DNA of 62,869 nucleotides, filler included, from Diploschistes diacapsis (taxonomy: Eukaryota): assembly GCA_023645945.1 (NCBI GenBank). It is 14 parts of 14 records of this genome, joined end to end, with 100 filler letters (N's around TTAATTAATTAA, not from the genome) between each part and the next. Parts side by side here need not be neighbours in the genome. Positions count along the whole stretch, not along the records: positions 1 to 21,741 come from JALAIB010000296.1; 13 more parts are not named here. The stretch is one strand, 5' to 3'. Positions 4,509 to 30,400 of this stretch are shown here, piece after piece; the first letter of the stretch is position 1, and the number at the start of each line of letters is the position of its first letter. Made by a program: the position numbers and the translations under genes. The notes under the pieces were generated by a model. It ran no database searches, was not told the DNA's origin, and saw only the letters and a program-made list of their open reading frames with translations.

Positions 4509-5930
4509 CTATTTCTCTGCGGTCTCCGTCTTCTCCTTTGCCTCGGCAGTTAGCCAGTCGTAGAATAGGTGCGCAAAGGCATCTGCTGGGTAGTCCACCA
4601 AGCGGTGGAAGACTTCGCCCACGCCGATGGTCATGATCAGACAGACGAAGAAGCAGGCTACGTTTGCGGCGGTGGTTGAGGCGCCGTTGCCCTGGGTCAG
4701 CCGCATGAAGAGCTTGATGCCCACCACGTAGATGATCCAGCTCTGTGTCAGGAACCAACCTGTGAGGGGAGGGGGGGGGGGAAAGGTTAGCAAAGGGTTT
4801 TTCGGGCCATCGGATACTGGAAACTCACTCAGTGACCGCTTGCCGAGGTAAATCAGCACTGGATTTCTGAAGATCGTTTGGAGGAAGTCGAACATCTCAA
4901 AGAGCACCCAGAAGCCAAGGATGAAGAGATAGTTGTCGTCTCTGGCTTGCGGCTCGCTCGGGTCAACGTCGATGTGCAGCTCGGTGTTGGCATACAAGTC
5001 GGTGTGGTACATGAGCTCGTCCAGCACCATGCCCGGCTTCCATGCGGTCCAGAGATACTGCATCGTCAACCCTGCGAGCATGACGAAAACCGCCGGTACC
5101 CAGGCGGGGAGGCGGAAGGCGACAAAAGGTAGAGGAATGCCCCGCTTCGCCCTGGCTTTGAAGTCCATGTGCATGACCATATCCGCGAACACAAGCCCCG
5201 TCACGGTGAACCATGCCCACGATTGCACCCACCAGGCCGTGAGCACGAAGGGGACCGCCATCTTGACGCGCCACGAGGGCCGGGTGTATGGAACGATCAA
5301 CATGAGGATGAAGACGGTAAAGCTTTGCTGGTAGATAAGATTGATGATCCATAGCATCTGAGACGGAAAGGCGTAGTTGCCGGACTGCGCGAAAAACAAT
5401 CCCGTAATCCAAAAGAGATGGTACACAGAGTTGAAGTAGACAAGGGCATTGCGGAGGAAATAAGGCGTAGCGAATGCGATGTTGTTCGTGAACGTCTTGA
5501 AGTCGTCAATGTAAGCTGTTCCTAGGGAAGCGAATGCGGTGGTGATGATGGCCAGCGACACTGCGACTGGGATGCTCAATCGAATACCTCGGCGAACGAC
5601 GGCGCTGGCGATTACGCTTCTGGTCGGGTTCGTAAAGAAGGTTATGGCCAGGCTGCGCGCTGACAGGATGATGAAGAACGAGTATATCAGAGTCCCGTTC
5701 CAGAACAGGACCGACAGCGTCTTTCGAAAGACGATCTGCCATCCGGGCCCGTCCACGCTTATTGTTGCATCCTTGACCGTGTTTGGAGCGAATGTGATCA
5801 GGAAGGTCCAGAGAAAGCTCTCGATGACCAAGAGCCCTCGAAATCCCAAGAGATACTCCTGGCCCTCGACGGGCGGCCATTGCTTCTTCTTGACGAAGTT
5901 GGTGATCTTTTCAGCGCTCATTTTCTCCAT
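4509..5930 (-). CDS. Acyltransferase-3 (OafA-like) polytopic membrane protein
   Basis: ATG at 5930 (MEKMSAEK). In-frame 69-nt intron at 4828-4760 (GTGAGT...GCTAAC...CAG). Motifs YLLGFRG, RRGIRLSIP, LWII, GLVFADM and YLGKRSLS are typical of fungal AT3 proteins, with many hydrophobic helices. Confidence 0.8.
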   Translation of the reverse strand: MEKMSAEKITNFVKKKQWPPVEGQEYLLGFRGLLVIESFLWTFLITFAPNTVKDATISVDGPGWQIVFRKTLSVLFWNGTLIYSFFIILSARSLAITFFTNPTRSVIASAVVRRGIRLSIPVAVSLAIITTAFASLGTAYIDDFKTFTNNIAFATPYFLRNALVYFNSVYHLFWITGLFFAQSGNYAFPSQMLWIINLIYQQSFTVFILMLIVPYTRPSWRVKMAVPFVLTAWWVQSWAWFTVTGLVFADMVMHMDFKARAKRGIPLPFVAFRLPAWVPAVFVMLAGLTMQYLWTAWKPGMVLDELMYHTDLYANTELHIDVDPSEPQARDDNYLFILGFWVLFEMFDFLQTIFRNPVLIYLGKRSLSEFPVSDGPKNPLLTFPPPPPLTGWFLTQSWIIYVVGIKLFMRLTQGNGASTTAANVACFFVCLIMTIGVGEVFHRLVDYPADAFAHLFYDWLTAEAKEKTETAEK

Positions 5931-8900
5931 GCTGGAAGCTTCAGCTCGTGGTGAAAGCAAGGCTTGTTGAAGTGCAAAAAGTGGGCAAGTGAAAGGCGCT
6001 GAAGTTGCAGCAAGTAACAGAGCTGGCGCCGCAGCAGCTAAAAAAATCCAAAAGGAATGCTCCAGTGAATTCAGTGGATTCAGATGAACCAGGTAAGGAA
6101 AGGACACTCAATTGCGATGATGCAGCTAGAAAACCATGCGATCAGCAATACGCTGAACCACCTGCTGCTGCTGAAGGGCATGGAACAGGGCAGGCCTGGA
6201 TGCTTCTCGAGAAGCAGTCAGATTTTACCAATCGTAGGCTCTTGGCATATGCTACCTAGAAGTAGATACCGTACTAGTACTAGTAGCGTGTACGGATATA
6301 CTGCAGCGCGTCTCACTCCCCATTACTAGCCTATTAGGTAAGATTGACCCATCTCATTGTACCAAAAACCGCGACATTTGCTAAGCTCATCCGGCCCATC
6401 CCATGCAACTCCTCCTCCATGTCTGGAGAGAAAGACGATCCGCGCTGGGCCAATACGAACGCTCCGGCACCGACCTCTCTCCGATCATACTGGAGCTAGT
6501 ACATGTGAGTACTGTCATGTCTCAGATAGAAGCATGGCATCATGATGATTATTGAACCTCGTTCGCTGTTTGTTTGATGAGCGAGATATACATAGTACCT
6601 GGTTAAGCACAGGGAACCTCGGTATGCTGTTTACCGGCCAACACGGATCCAAAGTCCCGTATTCATCCCCTTTCTCCGATGACGCAACTCAGTCTACGTG
6701 TGTCGTCGAAACAGCGGTTTTGGTTTGCTGCTTCGTTAAGCATCAAGGTTTGGAGAGACCCGGGATACGATGCCACTGACGCACAAACGCACAAGGTATG
6801 TATGTATGAGCTGTAAGTGGTTCACAAAAAGTTTGCGGAGAAGAGGTAGAAGAGCAACAACACGTGAGCGAATGATGCAGATTTCCCCGCGATAAAAGAT
6901 GGGCAAATGAAAATCCGTATATGCATGCACGCATCCCACTTTGGGACGAAAGAAAGAAAGATAAAAATAAAATTTAAAAAATGGTACCAGCTCATAAGTC
7001 ACGACACGAGAGTAGTAAAAGCTTGGTCGTTTTGTTTCAATGGAGGAAATAAAAAGAAGAGCGCTAGTGTTTGGTATGAAACAGCGCTTGTAAAAAAGAT
7101 ACAATGTGGCTTAGCTCTCTCGGTTGAGGCTTTGTTTTAGCCTGCCCGAGTCCCGCCTTGTTCAGCGAGCGGTTCTTGCAAGTAATGCTCCAGGGGAAAA
7201 TTCGAAATTTTCCTACACCGTTCCTTTCCATCACCCAAGGGCTCCCTCAGGCTTCCATGGAATGAATCATGTTCACATAATACAATCTCAAAGGGGAACT
7301 TAAGCCACAAGAATAATCTTAACATGATACAACTTCGAGTGCATGGACTCTTCAATACCCGCCGTAATAGGCCGTCTCTTTCCAATTGGGGGGTTCTCCC
7401 CAGCCTGTCAGCTTCCCATGAGTTACTCCACCCCAGCGCATCTACTGGAAGCTGAAAAGTGCAAGCGGCAACTTCCTCGTCACTCAAGTAGATTACTTTG
7501 TATTGGACTGAGACAAGACCCATCATTGACCCGCCGACAAGCTTTTGGGCGAGACATTGCTCGAACGCCCAAAGCATGCCCAAAGGGTTAAGCCTAGCTG
7601 TACCCGTCCCCGATCCAGCCCGGTCCTGGCCATAACTCGTCCCAAAGCGTCACTTGCGCAGAGGCTTAGCTCAAGTGGCGAATGCTTGACATGTTCAGCG
7701 CAAAGTCTACTTGCCATTTTGCTGCAGGGCCCGAAGCTTTACAGTGAAGCATTGTACTAACCCTTGGCGAAGTTCTTGTACCCGACACCAAAACATTCTG
7801 ATTATCTGCAAAGGATAAGAGTCTAGGTGAATGGAGTTGGACACGGAAATGGGATACAGATATGTTTCCTAACTCTTTGAGCAAAATGAGCAATAGGAAG
7901 AGGATAACAGTGGTAAGGATCACGGTAGTGAGTGGTGTCTACCGCTTGTTCTGTAGAACGTCGGCAAAGCAAGAACAACTTCGCGCAATTTGCAAAACTC
8001 GGCATGGCGGCCACGAGGGCCCAATTGGTCGCTGGAGCTGGACGACGCTTTCCTTGCGACGGATCACCCAAGTTGCACGAGATGTTGTGGCGAATGTCAC
8101 GAAAACTGTTCGTGATAGTTTTGAATCACGATATGACTCCCACCGTCTTCGTGGTGCAGGTTGTCCTGGGAATTGGCGAATGAGTTTTCTGTGATGCCGT
8201 GAAATTATCGATTAAGTTGACTCGATATTGTATGCATCATCCCTGGTCAAGGACCCTCCCCGTATTTTATTTGGATGAAGCTCATGAACACGATTCTTGT
8301 GCAAGGAAGGACCGAGTCCGTTCTTAGGTGTAGTTCACGCTATGGAGCTGCTTCGCCTTGAGCAAAAGCAAACGCAAAAGCCGCGAGCCGCGGTGTTTGC
8401 TATCTTTGCGTAGCTACCGTCTTGCTTGAAGTAGGAACGAGCGGCCGGAGTCCTGCAGGCAGTCGTCAGGAGACGGAGATGGCTGATCGCTTAGTTGGAC
8501 AATCAAGGTTACTGCAGTACAGGACGAGTATGAAATGCTGAGATGTAAGCATGCGCATATCTGGGATTTGCATTCGACCTTTCCAAGTCTGTAAAGAACT
8601 GCGATGCAATGCTGCATTGTCTGACCTACCATGAAGATAACTCTCCATTATTTTCATCAACAGCATCCACTGTCGGCAATTGCACACACAAGCCGCGGCT
8701 CCCACACCTTGTGCAACGGGCTTGCTCTATCATTCAGATTGTTGAAGTGAGTGCTATTATCGGTGTGAATGGTTGTGGAGCTCGAGCGACGAATAACTGT
8801 AGGGCTAGATAATATATTGCAGTATCACTTGTACGTCATTGGCACGTCTAATCGATAAACCGATCAGCCCGATGCCGCCATTATAGTGGAACATAGGAAA

Positions 8901-10212
8901 ACCCCTCATTGGGTTTACTGTCTGAGTACCAGATGCTGTTGCATGAGTGCAGACCATTTCTTCACTACATGAGCGTCAAGTAGCTTCTATGTACAGGAAT
9001 CCATGTTGCGGGTGCAAAGACCGCATCCGCTAGGATATAGCGATTCGGGGTATTAGAACGGGAGCCGTCTGTTAAGGTGTGTACCCTGAATGCCCAAAAA
9101 ACCAAAAAAAAACAGGAGCTCAGATAACGCAAGGCAGATTACGCTGTCGTGCAGCTGCTGGAGAGGGCCGGGCTGCAACGGTCTTTGCCAGCTGGTGGCT
9201 CAGAATAGTATCTGCCTTGTCGCTGCATGCAGCGATAAAGCTGCAATACGAAGGTATCCTTGCTGCAAAGGCATCTCGATATTAGCAAGCCGCAGCTCGA
9301 AGGAAGTTTGGAAGAACCAGAGAGCCAGGGAGCTTCCTTCGCTTGCCCTCGGTTTGTGAGGGAGGAGAGTGTGGATTTTTCTTTTGGGACAGCGGGGGAT
9401 ATCTGGGCAATCAGGCTTTTGAGGGGTGGGACTGCAAGTCTGCAGCTGCAACTGATGGCGACAGTTGACCCTTCCCCTCCGCTTTTTGTCGAAGAACGGG
9501 GTGTTTGGCAGTCATGTAGAAGGTAGATGGGCCGACAAGTCCATGCGCGAGAATTCGGGCAGCAAGGGTCATGAGCTCCACCGTTATCACGAAGATATGG
9601 TTTGTCACTTAGGACCAGAACGGGGGTTTTGATCTCCGCAAGACTGGCTGGCTGTGTCCGGGCTGCCATGCAAAAGCTGTCGTGGGTGCATCGTAGGGGG
9701 TTCTATCTTTCTTCGAAGGGATTATTGGAAAGCGCCCCCGTCTCTCTACCGCCACACCTGAGCCACAGCCGTCAGCCACAGCCACAGCCACGTATTGCAT
9801 GTGGCCTATTAATTCCTTCCTACAAACCCTTGACAAGAAAGCTAATGTTATTTTTGTCAAATATTATTCGGATGATTATTACACCATGCCTGCATACATC
9901 TTGACGTGGGGAGGGGGGCGCGCGCGCGCTTGTCCTCAAGGTCTGAGATTTTGATTTTTTTTTTGTTTGTTAAACACTAAAAATTACGTATGCTAGCTTG
10001 CTGTAGTAGTGGCTCGCTTTGGGTATCAAAATATTACTGTGCTCTAGATGCCATGGATATTCACCAAGTACCCCCCCTCTTTACAACTGTCGCCCGTATT
10101 TCCTATTTGGTGAATGCAGATTGCAGACACAACGCCGAATCCGGATGCCAGCCAGTCTATTGGTCGTCAGAACAAACAAGCGATTAGGCCGTAAAGATGT
10201 GCGCATGCGCGA

Positions 10213-11758
10213 CTATGAGCGAGCTGTGGGATTCCACGAAGAGTAGCGAATGATCTGTCGTGCATGGCCGTAAAGACCAATGATGGCGAAGAGTGAGAGG
10301 TAGAAGGGATAGAAGATGGAGAATTGGATGATCATCCAGCGTGATACGAATTCCGACTTGACCATGTTGGTGATCCACAGGGTGAGAATCAAGCAAACGG
10401 TGCTGGCATACCCGTTAGCGCTCCGTGAGCTGGCTTGGCTGGCTGGCTGGGGCATACCTTATTATAAAAAACCACGCGGAGACAGGATAGGTAAAGAAAA
10501 GCAGGTGAGCGAGTGAGGTTCCCGAATCGGGAAAGCGTAGGATAACTATAGCAACAACCAAGAGCGTGAATTGAGATACGAGGTAATAACTGATTTCGCG
10601 GATGCAAAGTAGGGTAAAGATGCCGAAACGTGTGACGAAGCCGCGCTGACCATCAATGGGCTTGTTCCAGGTCATGATAATGTGCTTGATGCTGGCTTGC
10701 GTCCAGCCTTGGGTCCATCGCAGACGCTGTTTCCAGAACGACTTCCAGGTGGTGGGGGCCAGTTCGTACGACACGACGTTGGAGTCGTGCACCGTCTTGC
10801 AATTCTTGGCAACGGCCCTGAGAGCAGAGTCGATATCCTCCGTCAGCATATCGCCGTCCATCTTCATCTCTCGGATCAATGGTGCGCGCCAGTAACCGTT
10901 GGAACCGGTGAACAGTCCAAAACCCCACATGGCGGCGCGCCCGGGGTGAGATACGGCGTAAATCTTATCGAATTCAACCGCAATCATTGATGCCAGCCAG
11001 GATTCATGGGTGTTGAAGATTACACAGCGCCCTTGAACAATATCAATTTTCTTGTTGGAGATCATCCTCTCAATCGCCCAGCGCGGTCCATAAGGGTGAG
11101 GGTAATGATCGCAATCGTAAATGGCAATGACATCTGCACCTGTGTTTAGGGTGAAAAAATAGTTTAGGTTGTCGGCCTTGGAGGTAGAGCCTGGCACTTT
11201 GATGACTCTCAGATTGGCATGTTTGGCAGCAAGATTCCAGAGCTCCGTCTCCAATGGCTCGATGGGTTTCGGGGTGTTGTATACCACGTTGATCCTGATC
11301 TTGTCTTTGGGATACACGATCTTGTCGAGCAGGTAGAGTGCCCGATCCAGTATGATGTCCTTCTCGTTGGGAAGGTAGGCAACGATGATGAGATCGAGGA
11401 CGAGAAGCTTGTCATCGGGCGTGGGAAATACCCAATTCTTTTCTTGAGCCTTCTGCACCGCTTTCCTCGTCTCGCGAACGGGACCCAAAGCGACGACTGC
11501 TTCTACCACTGTTGAGCCTGCAATGTAGAAGTTGGAGGTCATGCAGATGAACCAAAAGATCGCGAGTGCTCCCTCAGTGACCACCAGATAGAGGCAGATG
11601 GAAACGAAGACGTATGTGACGACGAGCAAAAAGGGCGTCCAATCCCACATCCAGTCCGAAGCTATGGCAACCCAATTTTTAATCCTGCCCAAGCCAGAGT
11701 TAACGCTGCTGCTGTCAGGCGTGGGCCCGCAGGCGGTGCCGGCTTCTAGTGAAGACAT
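10213..11758 (-). CDS. Processive family 2 glycosyltransferase (cellulose-synthase-like, not chitin synthase)
   Basis: One intron at 10457-10403 (GTATGC...GCTAAC...CAG). Motifs YLPNE, KADNLN, YDCDH (DxD), TGSNG, LTEDID and QRLRW (QxxRW). Two N-terminal and several C-terminal TM segments; about 496 aa. Confidence 0.9.
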
Positions 11759-14183
11759 TGTTTTCGTAGCAGGTTTGCAGCCCTTGTCGAAACTTCAGAA
11801 GCGAGCGTGAAAAGACCGTAAGGAGAGATAAACGGTGAACGAAGGTCAACAAAGACCTTTTCCACAGGACTGGATGAACGAAAGTAGAAGAAGTGTCGAC
11901 CGAGAAAGAGGGCCTATGGACTGCGAGCCGGATCTCAAGATAGATTTTGAAAGCCGGAGAGCTCACAGAAGCCTGACGCCGGGACAACTCGAAGAAGGAA
12001 AAAGACGAGACAGATCAACGCGTATTATTTAGGAAGGACCAGGACAGGGAAGGGGCAAGGGGAAGGGAAGACCTAGCAGCAGGCCCTTGATGCGGTGGCC
12101 GATTACCACTTTCCATCATCATCGACCAATTCATCCTTATCCTTTCATTCTTCTGGCCCACATTAGAGCGACTAGTTGTTACGGTACTCCGTATTAGCCA
12201 TTCGTTAGGTTATTGCAAAGGGGGGGGGGGGGGTGAGAAATAAGCGCTGGCGGCCATTCCTTGCTAGCTCTGATGCCAGTGCCAGTGCCAGTGCCAGTGT
12301 GCCAGTGCGATGAAATGATTGACAGGCACAAGATAGACTAGGTAGATTTGCGCTAAGGTAACATACGAAAGTAATACAGGGCTTCTAAAATAAAACAGCT
12401 AAACTAATCTTTCCCTTCCTGTGTAAGTAAGCCAAAAGGGGTATACTACTTACTCCGTAGTCAATACTGAGCTATCGAACTAGCGCAAGGGGAAGGTCAT
12501 TGCTGAAGGCACAGCAGCTCAATTAATCTCCTTTACACGGAGGAGAGATAGCAGAGATAATAGAGAGAGCATGGAGAGCAAAGAGAGCAATAGATGTGGT
12601 TGGTTGCTGCAGGTTTCGGGGCCTTGCTGTCGTTGGCGGCGATTATTCCGATCAGTCCAAACCTCTCTGCATCTCCAAGAGGGGGAGAGCAGCGATCAGG
12701 AGACGGTTTCTTACATTGCATTGCAGCCTCTCCGTCCTACAACCAATGCAGACCCTTTCTAGTCATCGCAAAGGTGGTCATGTAGGATAGATGGGTAGGA
12801 GTGTTTCTCGCTGCAGCGACAACAAACACCGCAGGATGGATTCAGCGGAAATTTGTATGAGTGGTGGTAATGACCAGGGTCAGTCAGAAGATACGAAGCA
12901 CGTTAAAACATGGCGCCACCCGCTTGAAGCCCCGGAAGGAGCCTCACGACATCTTTCCTCCCAACTGAGATGCACATCCGGTGTAGCTTTAGGAGTTGCA
13001 GCCGTTGAACTTCTGGCATAAAAAAGAACATATGCAAGGGTTTCTTTCCCCAACATTACGCACAACCTTATGCACTTTTTACACCCACTCTGCACCTACT
13101 ACGCGTTCTTACACTTTTTACCATCAATACGCGTGCCATTCATGTGCGCACCGATCGGCTGGAATGGCTTAATGAATACGCATGATCAAGCCTTAATTAT
13201 ACGCAGGGCCCGATGCGAATGGGATGAGCTAAGCAAGTCTAAAACAATGACTGTATTATGCCCACGCGACAAAGTAGACAAAGTACTTGGCGTTTCACTA
13301 GCGTCTGTGTGCTATTATCGTCTGTCTGTCTATTCGAAGCATGACCCTTCTTTGCCACCACTAATTAATTACACTTAGCCAGGCCAAGTACTGTCTGGTA
13401 CAAGCTAGTAAGATTTCTAGATTTCAAGTGGCTACGCTAGTACCTGGCTCGCCGGTAATTTACTGAAAACGCCTGGAAGACTAGCTAGTTCCCTGGGATC
13501 TACGTACCGGTACAACTGTACACAGCCAAAAGCCAAAAGCCAAAAGCCAAAAACACATCACTCTGATTTCCCACTGCTGCTGGGCTGCTACTCGCTAGCT
13601 CGCCCGCGTAGCATGGCTAGTAGGTACAAGATCAACTTACTTAGAGCCACACCATGTGGGATCCAGCCCCAGAACCACGAAAAAGACTTCCTGCAGCCCA
13701 GTAGCAAGTAAGCGGTAGTCTAGGGAAAGTACGCCGAATTTTCCTTATTCGGTCATTACCCAAAATCGATCTTGATTGCCTTCATCTCGCCTTCCGAGCT
13801 TGACTGGCGAATGCCTCTCTCTCCATCTTCTTTTCTCTCATCCAACCGCACTGATTTTCGAGAGCCTTGCGGATCCAGCCGCCGATCTATTCCAGTGACT
13901 TATTTTCTTCCCTGTTATTATTCCCTTATCTCTGCTTCCTACTGGGCCAAACGTACGCTCACGGACACTCTCTCTTATGTTCTGATCTTCTGTATGGGCA
14001 GTGTGGCCTCTGGAAGTACGGCAATCAATCGTTCAAAACCACATTCGCAGCATGCCTGGACCATCTCACTCAACCTAGCGAGAAGCCTGCCTACCTCCCC
14101 GTCGTCGTCCTTGCCCTCGACCTTATTTCCTTACATTGCTGGCGTTCTTTTCTTTTCCGCCCTCGCCTATCATACCAAGCGGA
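11759..14183. promoter_or_regulatory. Divergent intergenic region shared by the GT2 and GH16-AT3 genes
   Basis: Head-to-head start codons. Contains (GCCAGT)n at about 12274-12308, (CCAAAAG)n at about 13526-13551, TACTCCGTA motifs and three GCTAGTA copies. Confidence 0.55.
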
Positions 14184-17100
14184 ATGGGTGTACGGTCGAT
14201 TGTCGTCGCTCTTGGCCTGGCTGGCCTAGCCGCTGGCGCGACGGACGTTTCGAGTTGTTCGTGCGGTTTCTACGATGCCGAACAGGACAATCTTTGGACG
14301 GATTCAATTGTCGTTTACTTCAATGAGTCCAACAACATACCGGAGGATATTTTCTGGAGGGAGAATTGGAGGAATACCTACGAGCAGGGCTGGAACGCTC
14401 AGTTCGTCACGGGTTCTGCTACGAACAATTCGTGGATTGGCAACTCGACCTCTCAGTCAACGTCGGCCCAGAAGTCGCTCCAACTCTTCGTCGAACCTTC
14501 AACAGCCCAACATCTCGTTGTTGGGGGTGGTGTTAGAACGCAGCGGCAAGACATCCAGTATGGAAGCTTCCGAGCTATGATGAAAGGTCCGGCACGATAC
14601 GCTGGCGGCACTTCTTTGACTATGGAGCTCGCCTACAATTTAACGCAGCAAGTCAGTCTCAATATCATGAACACGGCCGAGCCAGATACTGCTTGGATCA
14701 GCACCCTCATAAACCATGAGTTCCCTAACCGCTACCTGGGAGTCAACTTGACAAATATCACGAACCAAGCCTTTGGTGCGAACCCTATCACGGATCCGTG
14801 GGGTTATAATATCATGAGGCTGGACTGGACACCAACTGTGATGAACTACTGGCTCGGCAATAACCTCAGTAGGTCAGTGACAGGTGCATGCGATGATGGC
14901 TCAGCAAGGCCTACCACGCCATCGCCCTTGACACTGAAGCATTGGTCCGATGGAAACGAATATGCCATGGAAGGACCTCCTTGGCACAATGAGAGCGAAG
15001 CAAACATTCTTTATGTCAGGGCATTCTTCAACACCTCCTCGCTGACAAGCGATGAGGAGCAAGCGTTCAATTCGAGGTGCAATATCAAAAGTGCCTGTTC
15101 CACAGATGACCTGGAGCTTCGTGGCTCCACCCCTTACCCAGAATCTGCAACACAGTACTGGCAGCAGCAATCCGGACAGTATACTATGCGATGGCCCGCT
15201 GTCGGAATCGGATCCTTTGGCCTTCTAATTTCTCTGTTGACAATTATCAACGTAACAATCCGCCGCTTCGTTCTTCCTGACGCCCCCAAGAAGCACGAGC
15301 CCGAACCCTCATCGACCGAATCAGAAGACAGCAATTCCACCAGGGGGGAAGGGTCATTCATTTCCGGAGGCACGACTCCGCTGGCCGCGCACAGGAGTCC
15401 TTACGCTTCTGGCTTCGTCACTCCAGCTACATCGGGGGCAAGGACCCTCGTGCCTGGCACTCCCAACAACCTGACCAGACCGTCCTCGATCAGGGACATA
15501 CCCCCAATACCCGAACAGTTTCGAGAATCTTCAATGGCTGGCTCTTCGGGAGCAGCAACTCCTCGAAATATTACTCGGCCTTCGTCCGCCAGAGGCGATG
15601 GGGAATTCCCGCCAATTCAACATGGATCGCACGACAATCTCGACAGGGCGCGGTTCGCTGAAATGACGATGGGTGAGGGTCCTACGTCGCCTGGACTCAT
15701 GTCTGGGCCCGAGACTCCATTCTTCGGTACCTCAGTACCCACCACACCATTCTCTCCTTCGTTTGGGGCTGGTGCAAGAAATTTGTCATTCCTTGGAAGA
15801 CCCGCAGAGCAAATTACCTACGGTCCCGCCGTTCCGGTTGGCGACACCGGTGATGAGGAAATCGTTCGAGGTGGGGTGGTCGTTGAGCCCAACGGCAAGG
15901 GCAAGAACGTTGCCATCAGCACTTCAGCTGCTCCAAAGGACGCCACGGTAGGGCGTGGAAAGCCCGCGGGTCAACGAGTCGACTATCTGGCCGGTCTGCT
16001 TGCAATCTGTTCAACATTTGTGTCGTTGACGCATTATATGCTTACGTTCGTTCCGGCCGTTATCGAGCCCGGCGCGTTTACCCACTATCCTAGCGAAAAC
16101 TTGGCGAGGAAGACTGTAGGATGGTTCTTCTTCAACGAAGCTTGGGTTGTTTTGTTCTTCACCACCTCCTCACGTTTCCTGACCACAAAGTATCTTCGAA
16201 CAGGCGACTTGGGCGTCATTGCGGAGAAAGCCACTGGCAGAACATTCCGTCTTATGATCCCCATTATCGGCGTCATAGTCCTAGAGTACTTCTTGATGGA
16301 CGTTGGTGCGGTGGATTGGTTGCAGTACCTATCTTCCGTGACGTGGTCCACTTGGCCGTACACAGTTGTCTACGACAACTTCGGCGACTTCGTCAGCGAG
16401 ACCCTCGAGTTGATCTATCTCATCCCCAATGGTCGGCCCCAGATCACTTCCAACTACTGCACCGGTGTGCTCTGGACCATTCCCGTGCAGCTTGATGGTT
16501 CGTGGCAGGCCATGCTTGCTGTGATCGTTTTTCGGGAGATCAAGGCACCTTGGAAAAGAATCACGTACTACCTCACCGTCATTGCACTCCACTGGTACGG
16601 TCGTTCCTGGGGCGCGTTTTTCGTTGCCGGTCTCTGCATGGCAGACATGGACGTGACCTACAAGTACAGGAAGTGGTTATTGGCAAGACCTTGGATCTAT
16701 TATCCCGCTTTGAACCTCGTCATTCTCCTCGCACTCGCCGGCCTCGGCAACGATCTTGTGTCCAACTGGATAGGCATCGACTTTCAAATCATCGAGGATG
16801 GGTGGCACATCGACAAGCGTACCGGTCTCGCTAGGATTCAGGCCGGCAATAGCGGCTTTCCGGCATACTACGTACCGAAGCTCAACGGTCTCGTGTTTGC
16901 CATATGCGCCCAACTTCTCGTCGAATGGAGCGCGTGGTTCCAGAAGGTCATTTCCGTGAAGATAGTCCTCTGGCTCTTCCCGCACATTTTCACCATCTAT
17001 CTCTTCCATGGTTTCATCTTCTGGAGCGTGGGCTCCGCGCTCTGCATTTCGCTCTCCTCGGCTGGCGTACCTTATTGGGCCAATTTGCTTCTCGTCGCCA

Positions 17101-17462
17101 TCGTCTGCTACACCGTCCTTTACCTGTCGCTTCCCATCATCACCCCCGTCGTGGAAGCCCTTGGAAAAACCGTCACGAACAGTATCTGGGCCTCGGCCTC
17201 GGAGCAGCCAGCGCCCAAGCGACGGACACTATACCCTTTCCCGGATGACCTCTTCGTGAGCCGTAACCTCGACAACCCCTTCGAAAACGCTTCTGTTATC
17301 GACTCAAGCGCTAGCTCTATCAACTACAAGCCAGGCAAGGGCGGCAAGGGTAGTATGACGACCGCAACAGGATCCAGTGCGAGCTCATTTGCAGAGAAGC
17401 CAACGACTGCGGATGGAAAGGCACCGAACACAACCGTCAGTGACATGGGCATTGCGTTCTAA
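14184..17462 (+). CDS. Fusion protein: signal peptide, GH16-like ectodomain, TM helix, S/T/P-rich linker, C-terminal acyltransferase-3 domain
   Basis: Intronless ORF from ATG 14184 (MGVRSIVVALGLAGLAAGA). CSCGF, RQDIQYGSFRAMMK, RLDWTP, PTTPSPLTLKHWSDGN and GPP mark a fungal GH16 fold. TM WPAVGIGSFGLLISLLTIINV. AT3 motifs RVDYLAGL, GRTFRLMIP, GVLWTIPVQ and GLCMADM. Confidence 0.85.
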   Translation: MGVRSIVVALGLAGLAAGATDVSSCSCGFYDAEQDNLWTDSIVVYFNESNNIPEDIFWRENWRNTYEQGWNAQFVTGSATNNSWIGNSTSQSTSAQKSLQLFVEPSTAQHLVVGGGVRTQRQDIQYGSFRAMMKGPARYAGGTSLTMELAYNLTQQVSLNIMNTAEPDTAWISTLINHEFPNRYLGVNLTNITNQAFGANPITDPWGYNIMRLDWTPTVMNYWLGNNLSRSVTGACDDGSARPTTPSPLTLKHWSDGNEYAMEGPPWHNESEANILYVRAFFNTSSLTSDEEQAFNSRCNIKSACSTDDLELRGSTPYPESATQYWQQQSGQYTMRWPAVGIGSFGLLISLLTIINVTIRRFVLPDAPKKHEPEPSSTESEDSNSTRGEGSFISGGTTPLAAHRSPYASGFVTPATSGARTLVPGTPNNLTRPSSIRDIPPIPEQFRESSMAGSSGAATPRNITRPSSARGDGEFPPIQHGSHDNLDRARFAEMTMGEGPTSPGLMSGPETPFFGTSVPTTPFSPSFGAGARNLSFLGRPAEQITYGPAVPVGDTGDEEIVRGGVVVEPNGKGKNVAISTSAAPKDATVGRGKPAGQRVDYLAGLLAICSTFVSLTHYMLTFVPAVIEPGAFTHYPSENLARKTVGWFFFNEAWVVLFFTTSSRFLTTKYLRTGDLGVIAEKATGRTFRLMIPIIGVIVLEYFLMDVGAVDWLQYLSSVTWSTWPYTVVYDNFGDFVSETLELIYLIPNGRPQITSNYCTGVLWTIPVQLDGSWQAMLAVIVFREIKAPWKRITYYLTVIALHWYGRSWGAFFVAGLCMADMDVTYKYRKWLLARPWIYYPALNLVILLALAGLGNDLVSNWIGIDFQIIEDGWHIDKRTGLARIQAGNSGFPAYYVPKLNGLVFAICAQLLVEWSAWFQKVISVKIVLWLFPHIFTIYLFHGFIFWSVGSALCISLSSAGVPYWANLLLVAIVCYTVLYLSLPIITPVVEALGKTVTNSIWASASEQPAPKRRTLYPFPDDLFVSRNLDNPFENASVIDSSASSINYKPGKGGKGSMTTATGSSASSFAEKPTTADGKAPNTTVSDMGIAF

Positions 17463-19859: not shown

Positions 19860-21051
19860 ATGGCCTCGGAAGACCTTCCAAAGATGCAGTACCGCCATCT
19901 CGGCCGCTCTGGCCTCAAAGTCTCCGTCATCTCCCTCGGAGGCTGGCTAACATACGGTGGACACGTCGGCAATGGTCTGGATATCCCTCCCAGTATAAAG
20001 CCATAACGCTGAGTAGAATGTGTACAGAGGATAGTTATGCTTGCATGAAGGCAGCCTATGATGCTGGCATCAACTTCTTCGACTGTGCCGAGGCGTACTC
20101 CGGAGGAGAGTCGGAAAAGATCATGGGAGAGGCTATCAAACACTACAAGTAACGCCACTCCGAGTCCATTTGAGAGGCCCGGTTCTGATGTCAGGAAGCT
20201 GGAAGCGCAACGACCTCGTAATCTCCACAAAGATTTACTGGGGAAGTGCCTATGGCGACAACCCCGTCAACAACGGCGGCCTTTCGCGGAAACACATTGT
20301 CGAGGGGACGAACCTAGCCCTTAAGCGCCTGCAGCTGGACTACGGTATGCCCCAATCGGCCACCAAACCGCGGACGTGCTAACGCCCAGCAGTCGACCTC
20401 ATCTACGCCCACCGCCCAGACCGCGACACCCCCATGGAAGAAACGGTCCGGGCCTTCAACCACCTCATCGACACGGGCAAGGCCTTCTACTGGGGCACTT
20501 CGGAGTGGAATGCAGACGAGATCTCGGAAGCCTGGCGCGTGGCGGAGCGGTACAACCTGATCGGCCCGCTGATGGAGCAGCCGCACTACAACTACCTGGT
20601 GCGCGACAGGGTCGAGAAGGAGTACCTGGGCCTGATCGAGCGGCACGGGCTGGGCCTGACCATCTTCAGCCCGCTCAAGCAGGGCATCCTGACGGGCAAG
20701 TACAACGACAAGGTGCCGGACGACAGCCGGCTCAGCACGAGCCAGGACAACTTCGCCAAGAACATGAGGGAGAAGTACGGCAACGAGGACTGGCAGAAGC
20801 AGATCCAGCAGGTCAAGGCGCTGGAGCCCGTCGCGGAGAAGCTCGGCTGCGACCTGGCGGCGCTGGCCATGGCGTGGGTCATCCGCAATCCGCACGTGTC
20901 GAGCGCCATCACGGGCGCGTCGAGGCCGGAGCAGGTGGCCAAGAGCGTCAAGGCGCTGGATGTGCTGCCCAAGTTAACGGACGAGGTGATGAAGGAGATT
21001 GACGAGCTGGTTGGGACGAAGCCCGCGTTGCAGCCAAGGAGATTTTTCTAG
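19860..21051 (+). CDS. Aldo-keto reductase, voltage-gated K+ channel beta-subunit-like
   Basis: Introns at 19975-20027, 20149-20198 and 20345-20392. Peptides [58 protein letters not shown] and [12 protein letters not shown]. Confidence 0.93.
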
Positions 21052-21741: not shown

Positions 21742-21841
21742 NNNNNNNNNNNNNNNNNNNNNNNNNNNNNNNNNNNNNNNNNNNNTTAATTAATTAANNN
21801 NNNNNNNNNNNNNNNNNNNNNNNNNNNNNNNNNNNNNNNNN
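21742..21841. other. Artificial contig linker, first of 13 identical 100-nt spacers
   Basis: N44-TTAATTAATTAA-N44, giving stops in all six frames. Repeats start at 23354, 45175, 46786, 48396, 50006, 51616, 53226, 54836, 56444, 58051, 59658 and 61264. Confidence 0.97.
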
Positions 21842-23049: not shown

Positions 23050-23594
23050 TGTTACGATCCAAGTGACTAGGTGGTAGTCCACTTGGCACTTCACAGCTGA
23101 TCGGGCATCTTCCCAACCTCTCCTTGTATATAGTCTAATCATGGTGACATTAATCACGTAATAAGTAGAAAGCCTTGAAGGTTATTTTACCCTCTATAGG
23201 TAAAACGGGAGAACGGTAGTTTTATACATTTATTAATCTATTTCGTTAAAGAGTAATTAATTATATAAAAACGCTGTTATAGTTCTTATAAGTTTTAATA
23301 TATTTATTTTTATAAACATCTTTAATTATTATTCGGGATTAATTTATATTCGTNNNNNNNNNNNNNNNNNNNNNNNNNNNNNNNNNNNNNNNNNNNNTTA
23401 ATTAATTAANNNNNNNNNNNNNNNNNNNNNNNNNNNNNNNNNNNNNNNNNNNNCTATAAAATTAAAGATCGTCGTCTTTAATATAAGCGTCGTATTCGCC
23501 GTAACCGAAAAATTCTTAAATTAATAAAAGATCGTGTTGACGAACAAACGCGTTATTTAACGAAAAAACTAGACTTAAAGTCGTTTAAGGCATA

Positions 23595-24871
23595 CAGTAC
23601 TAGTCCAAAAGTAATGGTCCCTCGGTTAAATCGGTGCAAATAAACAATAAATGTTTACTATTATTTTTATAATAATGCCACCATATCGTCGTTTGAAGTT
23701 TTGGGAGCGTTATGAGCTTATAGGCGTATACAGATCAGGTGTTATCCTGAAAAATGCAGTTAATAGGTTAAATATTTTTTATTCTATAGTCAAAAAGACA
23801 ATAGCAAAGGTTTCAGAGCGTGATGAAGATCAAGATGATTTGAAGCGCTCCGGAAGACCTCGAATAACGTTCGAAAATCAAGAAAATAGGTTTTATCGAA
23901 CGGCCAGACGTCATCTAGAATCTGAGTGGTTTGAATTGTTCGATATCTCGTCTACCAGCAAAAATATAGTGCGCCGAAGATTCCGCGACATCGATTTTTC
24001 TTTCAAAAAATATAGGATGCGGTGGAAGCCACATTTAGAGTTTGAAGATGCGGAAAAACGCCTGAGGTACTCCCGAATATATCGAACTTGGCGCGCCGAG
24101 GATTTTGTTAATATTTGGTTTATCGACGAGTGCTCTATAGTAATAGGAAGTGGTGAAGTACGAAAATGGGTATGGAGATATATAGGAGAACAATGGCTTC
24201 CCGATCATTTAGCAAAAACGGTTAGAAATAAGGAAAGTATTATGTTTTGGGCTGGTATGAGAGCCGATGGACGCGTCGTGTGGTGTTTCTTCGAAGATTA
24301 TTACATAAATGGACGAAGTGTTACCGCCGAGGTTTATTGTGCTTTACTAAGGGATATTTTGCTTTAAATCTACGAACCTGGGTAAGGTTTTTTGTAGGAT
24401 AATGTTCTTATACATACTGCAAACGTTGCTAAAACGTTTTTAGAGAGTTTCGGCGTTTGGGTTCTCGATTATTCATTATATAGTCTAGATTTGAACGTTA
24501 TAGAGTATCTTTGGTTTAGATTAAAAGAGGAGGTATTTCGGCTTTATTTAGAGCTTAAAATAATGCGTAAAAATAAGAATAATAAAAAATAGGTTTTAAA
24601 AGCTGTTATTATCGAGGCATTTAATCAAATTACGGCAGATAGGGAGTGGGATTTGTTTACTCGATTAATCTACTCGATGCCTACGCGAATTCAGGCTGTA
24701 TACGACGCGCAGGAATGGCAAACAAAGTATTAATAGATACTACGAATAAAGGGCATCAAAATGATCTAAAAAGCGCATTTATAAGACATTATTTAGGTAC
24801 GCATCGCATCTCCAAAGTTAATGATGTCTACTATAATTTAGGTAGGGACCATTACTTTTGGCACGTGACTG
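23595..24871 (+). mobile_element. Full-length Tc1 (DD34E) transposon, RIP-inactivated
   Basis: TA TSDs at 23593-94 and 24872-73. TIRs CAGT(N6)CCAAAAGTAATGGTCCC. Length 1277 bp. Confidence 0.92.
23675..24733 (+). pseudogene. Tc1 transposase with RIP-induced stops
   Basis: RSGRPR, WFIDE, *DNVLIH and YSLDLNVIEYLW, with exactly 34 residues between the second D and E. In-frame stops such as TAA at 24365 fit CAA-to-TAA changes. Confidence 0.9.
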
Positions 24872-27442: not shown

Positions 27443-30400
27443 ATGGCGGGGCAAAAAGACAAGTTTCTCGCACCACCAGTACTCGCTGCTATCCGGAATG
27501 AAGAAGTCGCTGCTCGAGTGAAGATGGAGAGGACGACAAGTCAGGAGATTCGAGAAGAGCGTGCGGACCTGAAAGAAGCTGCCGAGCAGTCGTTGAATGT
27601 CATCTTCGACCTGGGCATGGACGGTAATGTCCGCTGGGTCAGTCCTACCTGGAAGAACGTGATCGGAACGGCTGTGGAAATGATCCAAGGGAGACCCATC
27701 GCTACCATACTAGAGGACAACGAGTCGAATCCTTTCCTAGAGGCGGTAGAATCTATGAAACAGGATGACTCCCGCAGTCACCTCGTTCGATTTCGTACAC
27801 GCCTCGGGCCTGACTCGCTCTTTTACGACGATCTACCCGCCGGCGAGCCTCAGGGCGAAGGCGAGGAGGGAGAGGAGAACAGGAACGATGATGCCCGTGG
27901 CAGAATCATTACACTCGAAGGCCAAGGTATTATGGTGTATGATCGCTCTGCGGGAGGAGAGAGCCATGTGAGCACTATGGCAAAACCCCGGTCGATGCTC
28001 GTTTGTTGACATGCTGCAGTCAATGTGGATGCTTCGCCCCGCTTCTGAGCCACGAGAGATCACAATCGACCTGCCAGATGTACTTGTGGAGTCCTTAGGG
28101 TTTGGCGCAGAAGTTCTCGCGACCTATCTTACGGCCCTTGCAGAACAAGCAAACAATGAAGCTGCAAGCTATCCTCAGCCGCCTGCGATCTTGTGTCGGA
28201 TCTGCGAATGCCAAATCCCACCATGGTGGTTTGAAAAGCACAGCGACCTCTGTCTCCAGGAACACAGGGCTGAAGCTGAGGTGCAACTGGCACACGATTC
28301 TTTGACCGATCATCGTAACGCTATCGTGAAAGTGCTGGACGCCCTTGAAGCCCGCCGCTCAAGGTCCGCTGCAAACGAACCTTCGCCGCTGGTTCCACCA
28401 GCAGAGTACAAGGGCTTATCCATTGGCCCTAATTCAACTTCATCATCCAGCTCAGCTTCTGGTAGAGCAACCCCGGCAACGCCACCTCGCTCAAGGGATG
28501 CGTCAACATCAACAGCTGGCTTCGGTCATGTTCGGGCCAGGTCTTTTGCTGTACGTCGGCCCTTATCCCGCATTGTTGAGCTTATATTGGACCTCTGCGA
28601 CACGGCCATCGAGATCAAAACCCCAGCCCTTAGCGAGAATGCAGATCAAGAAACAGGGCAGTTTCGCACATCCACACCAGGATCTGAATCTCGTATTTCT
28701 CAGGTGCTGAACTGGCAAACTCCTGGTAGTAATACTCTTGAAAACGAAGAAGGTCTTTCAACACTCGCGTCGGATACCGAAACCCTTGCAAGGGGCAAGG
28801 TCGAAGCTGTTCTGAGACATCGTCGGATCCTCGAATACTCGGAACGCATAAGGGTCGAGTTCCATGTCTTGGTCCAGGATTGCATCGAGGCCGCCATGCG
28901 AAAGGCTGCCAGTATTCGGGAAGGTCGATTGAGTGATTCGAGCGACAGCGAAAGCGAAGCTGAAACGCCCGCTCCTCAGCAACAAACATTCTTCGGTGGC
29001 TGCCAGGACGGAAGCTCTCTAGGGCTTTCAGCCATGGCAATCGCTCTTCGAAATGTGTCTGATACAGCCCTCGGTTCCGAAACAGATAGGCGACAATCTA
29101 TCGCTATTTCGACAGGATCGAACAGTCCTCTTGAGTGTCCCACGCCTCGTTCGCGCTCTGTCGCACCACCTGGACTGCAGCGATCGCAATCCTCGAACAA
29201 GCGCAACTCTCTGTATGGAGGTAGTGATGCAGGCAACGTTAGTGACGGGAGCTTATCGTCTTCCCTCTTGGCTGGTCGAACGACGGGCTCCCCAAGTCAA
29301 GAACCAAATCTTACCAGATCGCAGAGCTCTCGCAATCGAAAGAGAAAAAGTCTCAAGCTTCCCGGAATATCCGCTTCTCCTCGGCGCCAATCTCCCTCCA
29401 GAGCTGGAGGTCCTGCATCGCCTTTGAGACTAACGAGACATAGGGTACTAAGTGGACCGGAAAACACAGCTTCGCCCCTGACGTCGCCTCTGCTCACCAC
29501 CAAAGAGCCTTTTCCCCCAATAGACCACCGGCGACAATTGTCGGCAACCTCATCAGTAGACCCAAATAAGCCCCCTTCACCAAGATTGTCGGCTATAAAT
29601 GCCCCACAGCAACGGGCCGTACCGCCTTCCATCAAAGACTTTGAGATTATCAAACCTATCAGTAAAGGTGCCTTCGGTAGCGTCTACCTCTCGAAAAAGA
29701 AAAGCACTGGTGACTACTTTGCCATCAAAGTACTCAAGAAGTCCGACATGGTTGCAAAGAACCAAGTTACCAACGTCAAGGCCGAACGGGCAATCATGAT
29801 GTGGCAAGGGGAGAGTGATTTCGTCGCCAAACTATACTGGACATTTGCAAGTAAAGACTACTTGTACTTGGTGATGGAATACCTTAATGGCGGTGATTGC
29901 GCCTCGCTAATCAAGATTCTTGGTGGGCTGCCAGAAGACTGGGCGAAGAAGTATCTAGGCGAGGTCGTTCTGGGCGTGGAGCACCTTCATAGTCGAGGCA
30001 TCGTCCATCGTGACCTGAAGCCAGACAACTTGCTTATAGATCAAAAAGGACACTTGAAGCTCACCGACTTCGGATTGTCCAGGATGGGTTTGATTGGCCG
30101 TCAGAAACGGCTTCGGAAGAGCCCACATAGTTCTGTTCCGGATCTGCTGAAGTCTGGTCCTTTTGGTCGACCGCATTCCATCACCTCGTCGCGCTCCACA
30201 TCCTTTGACTTTCAAGGGACAAACCAATCGCCTGCTCTAACACCAGATATGACGCCTGATCTTGCCGCGTCCATTGGCCCTCCGTCATATTTCAGCTTGA
30301 ACCGTGATAGCGCGTTGGGAAAGGAACATTCCCGTAGAGCTTCTGGTTATCGGAGTGATAGTGGTAGCAGCGACACTTTTAATCTCATGTTCAGGAGCCT

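What the first reader, a model, noticed from the sequence alone, without database searches (positions are those of the whole stretch)
5805..16034. The two AT3 domains have complementary losses in the helix-1 R-X10-H motif
Established: AT3 enzymes such as OafA/OafB need an R/K-X10-H motif in TM helix 1 and an RxxR motif further on. Seen: the stand-alone AT3 reads R-GLLVIESFLW-T (Arg codon 5840-5838 kept, His position 5807-5805 is Thr). The fused AT3 reads L-AICSTFVSLT-H (Arg position 15999-16001 is Leu, His 16032-16034 kept). Both keep RxxR (RRGIRL, GRTFRL). Inference: neither is a canonical solo enzyme. They may be an obligate pair or a sub-functionalised duo, which would explain why both sit in the cluster.
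Basis: partly seen in the sequence, partly recalled or inferred. Interest (0 to 1): 0.72.

Follow-up and report, generated by a model that had tools for sequence, protein, structure and literature searches.

The report
Fungal acyltransferase with disabled twin partner
Many fungi keep, beside a sugar-polymer synthase, two related membrane acyltransferases that are predicted to pair up. One has lost the residues that normally do the chemistry, so it is probably a helper subunit rather than half of a split enzyme.

Summary
The stand-alone AT3 keeps Arg/Lys (119/120) and never the helix-1 His (0/120). Pezizomycotina-type GH16-AT3 fusions never keep the Arg (0/200) and keep His (194/200). The split reaches helix 9: the stand-alone lacks Tyr/His, and the fusion lacks Gly/Ser.

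A pair is supported. An orthologous pair folds as a pseudo-symmetric heterodimer (ipSAE 0.84, best control 0.00), and the genes flank a processive GT2 in many fungi.

'Neither works alone, so they complement' is only partly right. Helix 1 is not among the listed interface residues. Smut and Taphrina fusions keep the whole DxxR-x10-H motif (27/27), and His-less partners occur in those lineages too. So the His loss is ancient, and the Arg loss came later, in Pezizomycotina only, together with newly fixed His and Lys residues near the CoA entrance.

Best reading: a catalytic AT3, fused to a dead GH16 domain, plus a pseudo-acyltransferase partner, acylating a GT2-made surface glycan. Seven paper searches found no description of it. 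A true acyl relay between the subunits stays possible (about 18%).

The parts
4509..5930 (-). Stand-alone AT3-like (TmAT-fold) gene, 450 aa after splicing; His-less, probable pseudo-acyltransferase subunit
   Evidence: ORF; no Pfam hit; homologues annotated AT3; orthologue model matches HGSNAT Z 15.5 and GWT1 Z 9.9
4760..4828 (-). 69-nt in-frame GT-AG intron inside the helix-9 motif of the stand-alone gene
   Evidence: spliced orthologues lack the 23 residues; no RNA check was possible
5838..5840 (-). Helix-1 Arg kept (OafB Arg14 slot)
   Evidence: R/K in 119/120
5805..5807 (-). Thr at the helix-1 His slot (OafB His25)
   Evidence: His in 0/120 and 0/69
5580..5591 (-). RxxR of the stand-alone protein
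   Evidence: first Arg 120/120, second 96/120
4743..4835 (-). Helix-9 motif of the stand-alone (spans the intron): Ser kept, Tyr slot is Phe, His slot is Gln
   Evidence: S 65/68, F 64/68, Q 65/68 among rows with a full C-terminus
5004..5006 (-). Loop His309, the only His column conserved across the stand-alone family; equivalent to fusion His874 (16806-16808)
   Evidence: 119/120, 81/86 representatives; equivalence
10213..11758 (-). Processive GT2 synthase (DCD, TED, QRLRW), with a 55-nt intron at 10457..10403
   Evidence: Pfam PF13632 E 6e-19; best NCBIfam PgaC/IcaA E 7.7e-17, far below cut-off; BcsA E 3e-6; splice check
14187..17462 (+). GH16-like::AT3 fusion, 1091 aa, transcribed divergently from the GT2; probable catalytic subunit
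   Evidence: AT3 model matches HGSNAT Z 15.7 and GWT1 Z 10.3
14445..14963 (+). GH16-like domain without the E-x-D-x-E catalytic motif (probable glycan-binding pseudo-glycosidase)
   Evidence: Pfam PF00722 E 0.008, below cut-off; Atlas GH16 look-alikes 0.93; motif in 0 of 204 fusions
15192..15263 (+). Single transmembrane segment between the GH16-like domain and the long low-complexity linker
   Evidence: hydropathy, residues 336-359
15990..16034 (+). Helix-1 motif of the fusion: Asp slot Ala (15990-92), Arg slot Leu (15999-16001), His kept (16032-34)
   Evidence: A 199/200, R 0/200, H 194/200
16239..16250 (+). RxxR of the fusion
   Evidence: 199/200 and 200/200
16983..17009 (+). Helix-9 motif of the fusion: G-x-x-S replaced by F-P-H-I, Tyr-x-x-His kept
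   Evidence: H851, Y856 and H859 (P0140 numbering) each 200/200; Gly slot F 196/200, Ser slot I/V/T 200/200
17154..17168 (+). Helix-10 Glu-x-x-x-Lys; the basic residue is specific to Arg-less fusions
   Evidence: K/R 193/200 versus 0 of 21 aligned motif-intact fusions

Best explanation
The three genes encode a membrane machine that makes and O-acylates a surface or secreted glycan (inferred). The GT2 polymerises the glycan. The dead GH16 domain binds it outside the cytosol (inferred). The fused AT3 is the catalytic subunit: acyl-CoA enters from the cytosol, and the helix-1 His and helix-9 Tyr/His transfer the acyl group to the sugar (inferred from OafA/OafB and GumG). The stand-alone protein is a paralogue that lost those catalytic residues before smuts and ascomycetes split (loss shown by alignment and tree). 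It is kept as a pseudo-enzyme subunit that packs against the catalytic AT3 in a two-fold-like heterodimer through helices 3-5 (predicted). It most likely serves folding, stability, assembly with the GT2, or acyl-CoA-sensing control; it keeps Arg, RxxR and G-x-R-S. The Arg loss in the fusion is a later change confined to Pezizomycotina that remodelled the CoA entrance within the same chain.
For: Motif tallies. Motif-intact fusions in named smuts (Meira, Violaceomyces, Jaminaea, Tilletia, Acaromyces, Thecaphora, Sporisorium) and in the Taphrina/Savitreella group. His-less stand-alones in Tilletia, Ustilago and Exobasidium. His-less P0405 and intact fusion P0411 share a longest-contig length of 25,314. 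Tree of 73 rows: fusion clade and His-less clade each SH-aLRT 100, each split smut | (Taphrina-like | Pezizomycotina); chytrid and blastoclad relatives carry the full motif. Complex of the Sarea resinae orthologues plus CoA: ipSAE 0.84 in 3 of 3 runs, best of 3 controls 0.00, contacts agree at least 79%, partner pLDDT at least 83. The mark was reached by 51 of 78 solved and 2 of 108 mismatched microbial pairs, and by 39 of 65 solved and 2 of 126 unrelated eukaryotic pairs. 36 of the 51 stand-alone interface positions are equivalent to fusion interface positions (5.8 expected). Linkage: adjacent locus tags in Sarea, Monilinia, Lachnellula, Stromatinia and Rasamsonia; 29 of 83 stand-alone hits on contigs of 12 kb or more share an exact contig length with a listed fusion hit. 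His25 and Arg14 are essential in OafA (PMC7448272 Table 1); His40 and His297 are needed in GumG (bioRxiv 10.64898/2026.06.22.733816, section 3.3).
Against: No activity, binding or expression was measured. The complex controls were unrelated proteins; homodimers and other AT3 cousins were not tested, and the tool warns that close cousins pass, so a symmetric interface may only reflect a family habit of homodimerising. The job used orthologues about 50% identical to the window's proteins, was folded without alignments, and carried a ligand that the calibration did not. Interface residues are only slightly more conserved than the rest (p 0.08 and 0.08). TmAT enzymes can work without the helix-1 His: HGSNAT has Asn there and GWT1 lacks HGSNAT's catalytic His (PMC12423673). 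The stand-alone keeps one near-invariant loop His (119/120). Six of 200 fusions lack both Arg and His. OafA R14A is below 1% active, so an Arg-less fusion needs compensation, and that is only inferred here.
Confidence: 0.55

Rival explanations
1. Split enzyme or relay. In Pezizomycotina the fusion's CoA entrance closed, so the His-less subunit now binds acyl-CoA and passes the acyl group, or the thioester arm, to the His-bearing subunit across the dimer, perhaps through the shared loop His.
For: Complementarity extends to two motifs: the fusion lost Asp, Arg, Gly and Ser on the CoA side and the stand-alone kept Arg, RxxR and G-x-R-S, while Tyr/His show the reverse. Residues next to the loop His of both chains (793-800 and 310-312) are in the predicted interface. 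The stem branch of Pezizomycotina fusions is long (0.64).
Against: Helix 1 is not among the listed interface residues. Arg and His serve one CoA molecule within one pore (PMC9833829). The fusion keeps RxxR (199-200/200) and Arg581 and gained His851 and Lys912. The His-less partner existed before the Arg loss.
Confidence: 0.18
2. Two independent transferases. Each adds its own acyl group (different donor or position), the stand-alone by His-free or loop-His chemistry like HGSNAT or GWT1. The predicted heterodimer only echoes homodimers.
For: Strong conservation of the stand-alone (20 invariant columns in 120 rows), including CoA-side arginines and His309. Precedents without the helix-1 His (PMC12423673). 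Xanthan uses more than one AT3 enzyme (GumF and GumG; recalled, and consistent with the gumFGL deletion strain in the GumG preprint).
Against: Both His slots and the Tyr slot hold mostly hydrophobic or variable residues rather than one replacement catalytic residue. The heterodimer score was high in all three runs.
Confidence: 0.2
3. The stand-alone has become a conduit (CoA or acyl-CoA carrier, or helper for polymer export with the GT2) rather than a mere scaffold.
For: The pore-side basic residues are kept and the catalytic ones are gone. TCDB names the family 'putative acetyl-CoA transporter' (PMC12423673). The GT2 is small, 510 aa (sum of the two exons).
Against: No channel analysis was possible (no coordinates were returned), and no AT3-GT2 contact was tested.
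Confidence: 0.07

Closest known systems
AT3 / TmAT acyltransferases (OafA, OafB, OacB, GumG; PF01757)
   Same: TmAT fold (Z 15.5-15.7 to HGSNAT, about 10 to GWT1), RxxR, helix-6 Gly; smut fusions pass the Pfam cut-off.
   Different: R-X10-H, called absolutely conserved in PMC9833829, is broken in both window proteins. The word 'dimer' does not occur in PMC9833829 or PMC9558356, whereas here a heterodimer with a degenerate paralogue is predicted. The fused partner domain is a dead GH16, not SGNH or NRF.
Staphylococcal icaADBC (IcaA GT2 + stand-alone AT3 IcaC)
   Same: A processive GT2 whose best NCBIfam match is PgaC/IcaA, clustered with an AT3 for O-acylation of the polymer (IcaC role per PMC12423673).
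   Different: The score is far below the IcaA cut-off (61 versus 422 bits); no deacetylase was seen in the window cluster; there are two AT3 paralogues and a GH16-like domain; the polymer is unknown.
HGSNAT and GWT1/PIG-W
   Same: Same fold; they show that TmAT catalysis can do without the helix-1 His (PMC12423673).
   Different: About 7-12% identity over the aligned residues; different acceptors; no degenerate partner is described in the passages read.
Enzyme plus inactive-paralogue heterodimers (pseudoenzyme partners, e.g. PRMT1 or AdoMetDC prozymes of trypanosomes; recalled, not from a call)
   Same: Gene duplication, loss of catalytic residues in one copy, and retention as a partner subunit.
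   Different: Different folds; no AT3 case came up in the search.

Membership tests
AT3 (PF01757) | Pfam gathering score of 31 bits or more | tested here: not met
   Fusion 23.5 bits; stand-alone no hit. Relatives do pass: 9 of 10 motif-intact fusions 31.5-70.5 bits, His-less P0298 31.9.
AT3 / TmAT | 10-helix TmAT fold | tested here: met
   Models pLDDT 92.6 (Sarea orthologue of the stand-alone) and 83.6 (window fusion domain); HGSNAT 8jkv Z 15.5, rmsd 4.7, 294 aligned, and Z 15.7, rmsd 4.4, 290 aligned; next unrelated rows Z 6.7 and 5.1.
AT3 | Helix-1 DxxR-x10-H complete in one chain | tested here: not met
   Stand-alone His 0/120; Pezizomycotina fusion Arg 0/200. Met in 27/27 smut and Taphrina-type fusions.
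AT3 | Helix-3 RxxR | tested here: met
   Stand-alone 120/120 and 96/120; fusion 199/200 and 200/200.
AT3 / TmAT | Helix-2 FxxxxG | tested here: inconclusive
   Phe and Ser are present; the Gly slot is Ala/Thr/Ser followed by a shared Arg in both paralogues. That Gly is dispensable in OafA (G46A 99.6%; PMC7448272).
AT3 / TmAT | Helix-6 Gly | tested here: met
   98% in stand-alones, 95% in fusions.
AT3 | Helix-9 SxxxY (with the following His) | tested here: not met
   Stand-alone: Ser yes, Tyr slot F 64/68, His slot Q 65/68. Fusion: Tyr and His 200/200, Ser 0/200.
AT3 | Acyl-CoA-dependent O-acylation of a carbohydrate | not testable with these tools
   Needs an assay.
GH16 hydrolases | Catalytic E-x-D-x-E | tested here: not met
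   0 of 204 fusions in the first 380 residues. The longer E-x-D-x-x-E spacing was not searched by pattern, but the aligned columns show no conserved acidic triad.
icaADBC / pgaABCD (PNAG) | IcaA/PgaC equivalog score and a deacetylase gene in the cluster | tested here: not met
   61.3 versus 422.3 bits; no deacetylase among the ORFs scanned.

The most novel reading that the evidence does not exclude
In filamentous ascomycetes an ancient enzyme/pseudo-enzyme AT3 heterodimer has turned into a truly split transmembrane acyltransferase. One protomer captures acyl-CoA in the cytosol, and the other, with a remodelled entrance, carries the catalytic histidines. The acyl group crosses between subunits before it is placed on an undescribed GT2-made fungal surface glycan, possibly an O-acetylated beta-1,6-glucan of the pustulan type.
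Probability: 0.18. Interest if true: 0.87.

Novelty: new variant of a known kind. Interest (0 to 1): 0.62.

Why it matters
AT3 enzymes are modelled as single-chain pores with an invariant R-X10-H motif. Here are two large natural exceptions with a datable order of loss, and a concrete prediction of a heterodimer with a catalytically degenerate paralogue. Smut and Taphrina copies (intact plus His-less) versus Pezizomycotina copies (Arg-less plus His-less) form a ready-made comparison for testing what the helix-1 Arg and His do. The gene trio is widespread in lichen, black-yeast, plant-associated and food-spoilage fungi. It points to an uncharacterised pathway for an acylated surface polysaccharide. 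O-acetylated pustulan-type glucans are known from Umbilicaria lichens (reference title and passages in PMC7164778), and Lasallia pustulata has the fusion, but that link is only a lead.

Tried and rejected
Register shift giving one protein both residues: rejected. No R/K in fusion positions 519-530 (0/200). A His anywhere in stand-alone positions 36-51 occurs in only 3/120 and 2/69 rows, never at the slot.

Free variation among orthologues: rejected.

Composite site built from the two helix-1 segments: not supported by pore geometry (PMC9833829) or by the listed interface.

Foldseek against PDB found nothing at E 0.001 or below for either model, and a sequence-profile search of PDB with the stand-alone alignment found nothing. 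Only the wide VIA search recovered HGSNAT and GWT1.

Metagenome scan for smut synteny: 24 loci; only two held the fusion, on contigs of 4.9 and 3.8 kb, too short to show neighbours. The rest were ordinary AT3, used as outgroup. Synteny outside Pezizomycotina therefore rests on one shared contig length; the Tilletia walkeri tags found (g3576 and g1842) are not adjacent.

Matching fusion Lys912 to OafB Arg338 rests on E+4 spacing only. In the 5 of 15 outgroup proteins with the helix-10 pattern the basic residue is at +5, not +4, so the compensation is unproven.

The tree left the sister relation of the two paralogue clades open, in a three-way fork with chytrid and blastoclad AT3 (quick method, no bootstrap).

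No RNA holder was listed.

Paper searches listed no study of this trio or of an AT3 heterodimer. The library lacks most subscription papers, only the top 8-20 rows of each search were seen, and no supplements were opened; gene-level data in supplements could bear on this.

The Pfam scan of the whole stand-alone alignment was not run; 16 stand-alone-type proteins were scanned singly and only 2 hit PF01757.
Full report
Observation. The window's first 21,741 bases are one contig of a 29-Mb fungal assembly. It carries a stand-alone AT3-like gene (5930..4509, minus, one 69-nt in-frame intron), a processive GT2 (11758..10213, minus, one 55-nt intron) and a divergently transcribed GH16-like::AT3 fusion (14187..17462). 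Pairwise, profile-profile and HMM alignments agree on the register.

Conservation. Among the best 120 of 259 stand-alone homologues the Arg slot is R/K in 119 and the His slot is never His. The same holds for 69 of 69 more diverse representatives with helix 1 covered, out of 150 listed from 819 hits. I aligned 227 fusions: the 120 listed, 87 new ones, and 20. In the 200 of Pezizomycotina type (named ones are all Pezizomycotina; unnamed ones were assigned by similarity) the Arg slot is never basic and His is kept in 194. All 15 outgroup AT3 checked have the full motif. In helix 9 the stand-alone keeps G-x-R-S but has Phe and Gln where Tyr and His belong (64/68 and 65/68 of rows with a full C-terminus; more mixed in distant representatives, His 1/33). 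The fusion keeps Tyr-x-x-His (200/200) but has replaced G-x-x-S by F-P-H-I and the DxxR Asp by Ala. Both keep RxxR and the helix-6 Gly. Both models have the TmAT fold (HGSNAT Z 15.5 and 15.7, GWT1 Z about 10).

What the residues do elsewhere. OafA R14A and H25A give below 1% activity, and the two lie on one face of helix 1, about one CoA length (19 A) apart (PMC7448272, passages with Table 1). Simulation places Arg14 at the 3'-phosphate and His25 at the thioester of one acetyl-CoA in one protomer (PMC9833829, passages). GumG needs His40 and a second His297 (bioRxiv 10.64898/2026.06.22.733816, abstract and first part of section 3.3); that His297 is the helix-9 His is my inference. The motif is not universal to the fold: HGSNAT has Asn at the His slot, and GWT1 lacks the DxxR motif and HGSNAT's catalytic His (PMC12423673, parts 1-3 of 7). 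So the stand-alone lacks the predicted catalytic set, and the fusion lacks part of the CoA-binding set.

Order of events. The profile search returned, right after the stand-alone family, 840-1240-residue proteins with a complete DxxR-x10-H. They are fusions of smuts (seven named genera) and of the Taphrina/Savitreella group; Pfam saw a weak GH16 match in 2 of 10 scanned. All 19 smut-type rows (several are near-copies) and all 8 Taphrina-type rows have both Arg and His. His-less stand-alones are named from Tilletia, Ustilago and Exobasidium. His-less P0405 shares a contig length of 25,314 with the intact fusion P0411. A 73-row tree gives one fusion clade and one His-less clade (SH-aLRT 100 each), each ordered smut, then Taphrina-like, then Pezizomycotina. 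Chytrid and blastoclad relatives with the full motif lie beside them in an open fork. The simplest reading is a duplication and His loss before the smut-ascomycete split, and Arg loss only on the Pezizomycotina stem. Keeping both genes therefore predates the 'complementary' state. On the same stem the fusion fixed His851 (200/200; His is also present in 9 of 14 aligned smut rows and 0 of 8 Taphrina-type rows) and a helix-10 basic residue (193/200 versus 0/21), which suggests compensation within the chain. Its match to OafB Arg338 is by spacing only and was not borne out in the outgroup.

Do they bind? One complex job was run on the properly spliced, adjacent Sarea resinae orthologues (fusion 511-930, stand-alone 20-439, plus CoA). 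It scored ipSAE 0.84 in all three runs against 0.00 for the best of three controls, with contacts agreeing at least 79% and partner pLDDT at least 83. The mark was reached by 51 of 78 solved and 2 of 108 mismatched microbial pairs, and by 39 of 65 solved and 2 of 126 unrelated eukaryotic pairs; the calibration held no ligand. The interface uses the start of helix 3, the following extracytosolic helix and helices 4-5 on both chains. 36 of 51 positions are equivalent (5.8 expected), so the dimer is pseudo-two-fold. Helix 1 is not listed in it; the tool notes that an unlisted residue is uncertain rather than excluded. Against this: homodimers and cousins were not tested, a symmetric paralogue interface can pass by family habit, and interface conservation is only marginally above background (p 0.08 for each chain). 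HGSNAT is, from memory, a homodimer at about 10% identity; I did not check whether its interface is alike. The model supports binding; it does not show it.

Context. The trio is linked in many Pezizomycotina. Locus tags lie two or three apart in Sarea, Monilinia, Lachnellula, Stromatinia and Rasamsonia. The GH16-like domain lacks E-x-D-x-E in 204 of 204 fusions. The GT2 is nearest to IcaA/PgaC and BcsA but far below their cut-offs. Two earlier notes of this scan describe the same trio, one in a smut-like fungus; I could not confirm the smut synteny myself.

Mechanism and verdict. Most likely (0.55) the fusion is the catalytic acyltransferase for a GT2-made glycan held by its dead GH16 domain, and the stand-alone is an ancient pseudo-enzyme subunit of a heterodimer. 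Rivals are a true inter-subunit relay arising in Pezizomycotina (0.18), two independent transferases with the stand-alone using other chemistry such as its loop His309 (0.20), and a conduit role (0.07). Shown: the residues, their conservation, fold, linkage and the order of losses. Predicted: the heterodimer. Inferred: all chemistry, the substrate and the partner's role. Both proteins have the AT3/TmAT fold but fail several defining motifs, so I file them as divergent variants. Seven paper searches (listings only, plus passages of PMC9558356, PMC5872309 and PMC7164778) showed no account of the trio or of an AT3 heterodimer. Interest 0.62; new variant of a known kind.

Noticed in passing
window 14445-14963: The GH16-like domain is catalytically dead across the family (E-x-D-x-E in 0 of 204 fusions), although databases label many orthologues 'glycoside hydrolase family 16'.
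   Followed up: yes
window 5004-5006 and 16806-16808: A loop His (E-x-x-x-H) is kept in both paralogues from smuts to Pezizomycotina and sits next to predicted interface residues; a candidate relay or acceptor-binding residue.
   Followed up: partly
proteins P0163, P0209, P0226, P0240, P0486, P0487: Six of 200 Pezizomycotina-type fusions (including Candelaria, Candelina and Caeruleum) lack both Arg and His in helix 1 while keeping the helix-9 Tyr/His; they may be second, degenerate copies.
   Followed up: no
protein P0366 (Terramyces): An 817-aa gene model with two AT3 domains in tandem, the second without helix 1. Probably two merged neighbouring genes, but a natural two-AT3 fusion is not excluded.
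   Followed up: partly
proteins P0026/P0093, P0050/P0091, P0151/P0191, P0146/P0167: Several fungi carry two copies of the stand-alone or of the fusion (Lecanora, Claussenomyces, Lachnellula, Meristemomyces), and smut fusions fall into two subclades, so the trio seems to have duplicated repeatedly.
   Followed up: no
window 21742-21841, 23354-23453, 45175 onward: The window is a join of pieces separated by paired N runs; only 1-21741 is contig C2179, so genes beyond 21741 are not neighbours of the cluster.
   Followed up: yes
window 20434-21051 (+), 23651-24367 (+), 27443-33131 (+), 42656-44977 (+): An aldo-keto reductase exon (PF00248), a Tc1/mariner-like transposase piece (weak PF01498), a large protein kinase with a receiver-like tail (Rim15/Cek1-like by eye, recalled), and an APH-type phosphotransferase-fold ORF (PF01636).
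   Followed up: no
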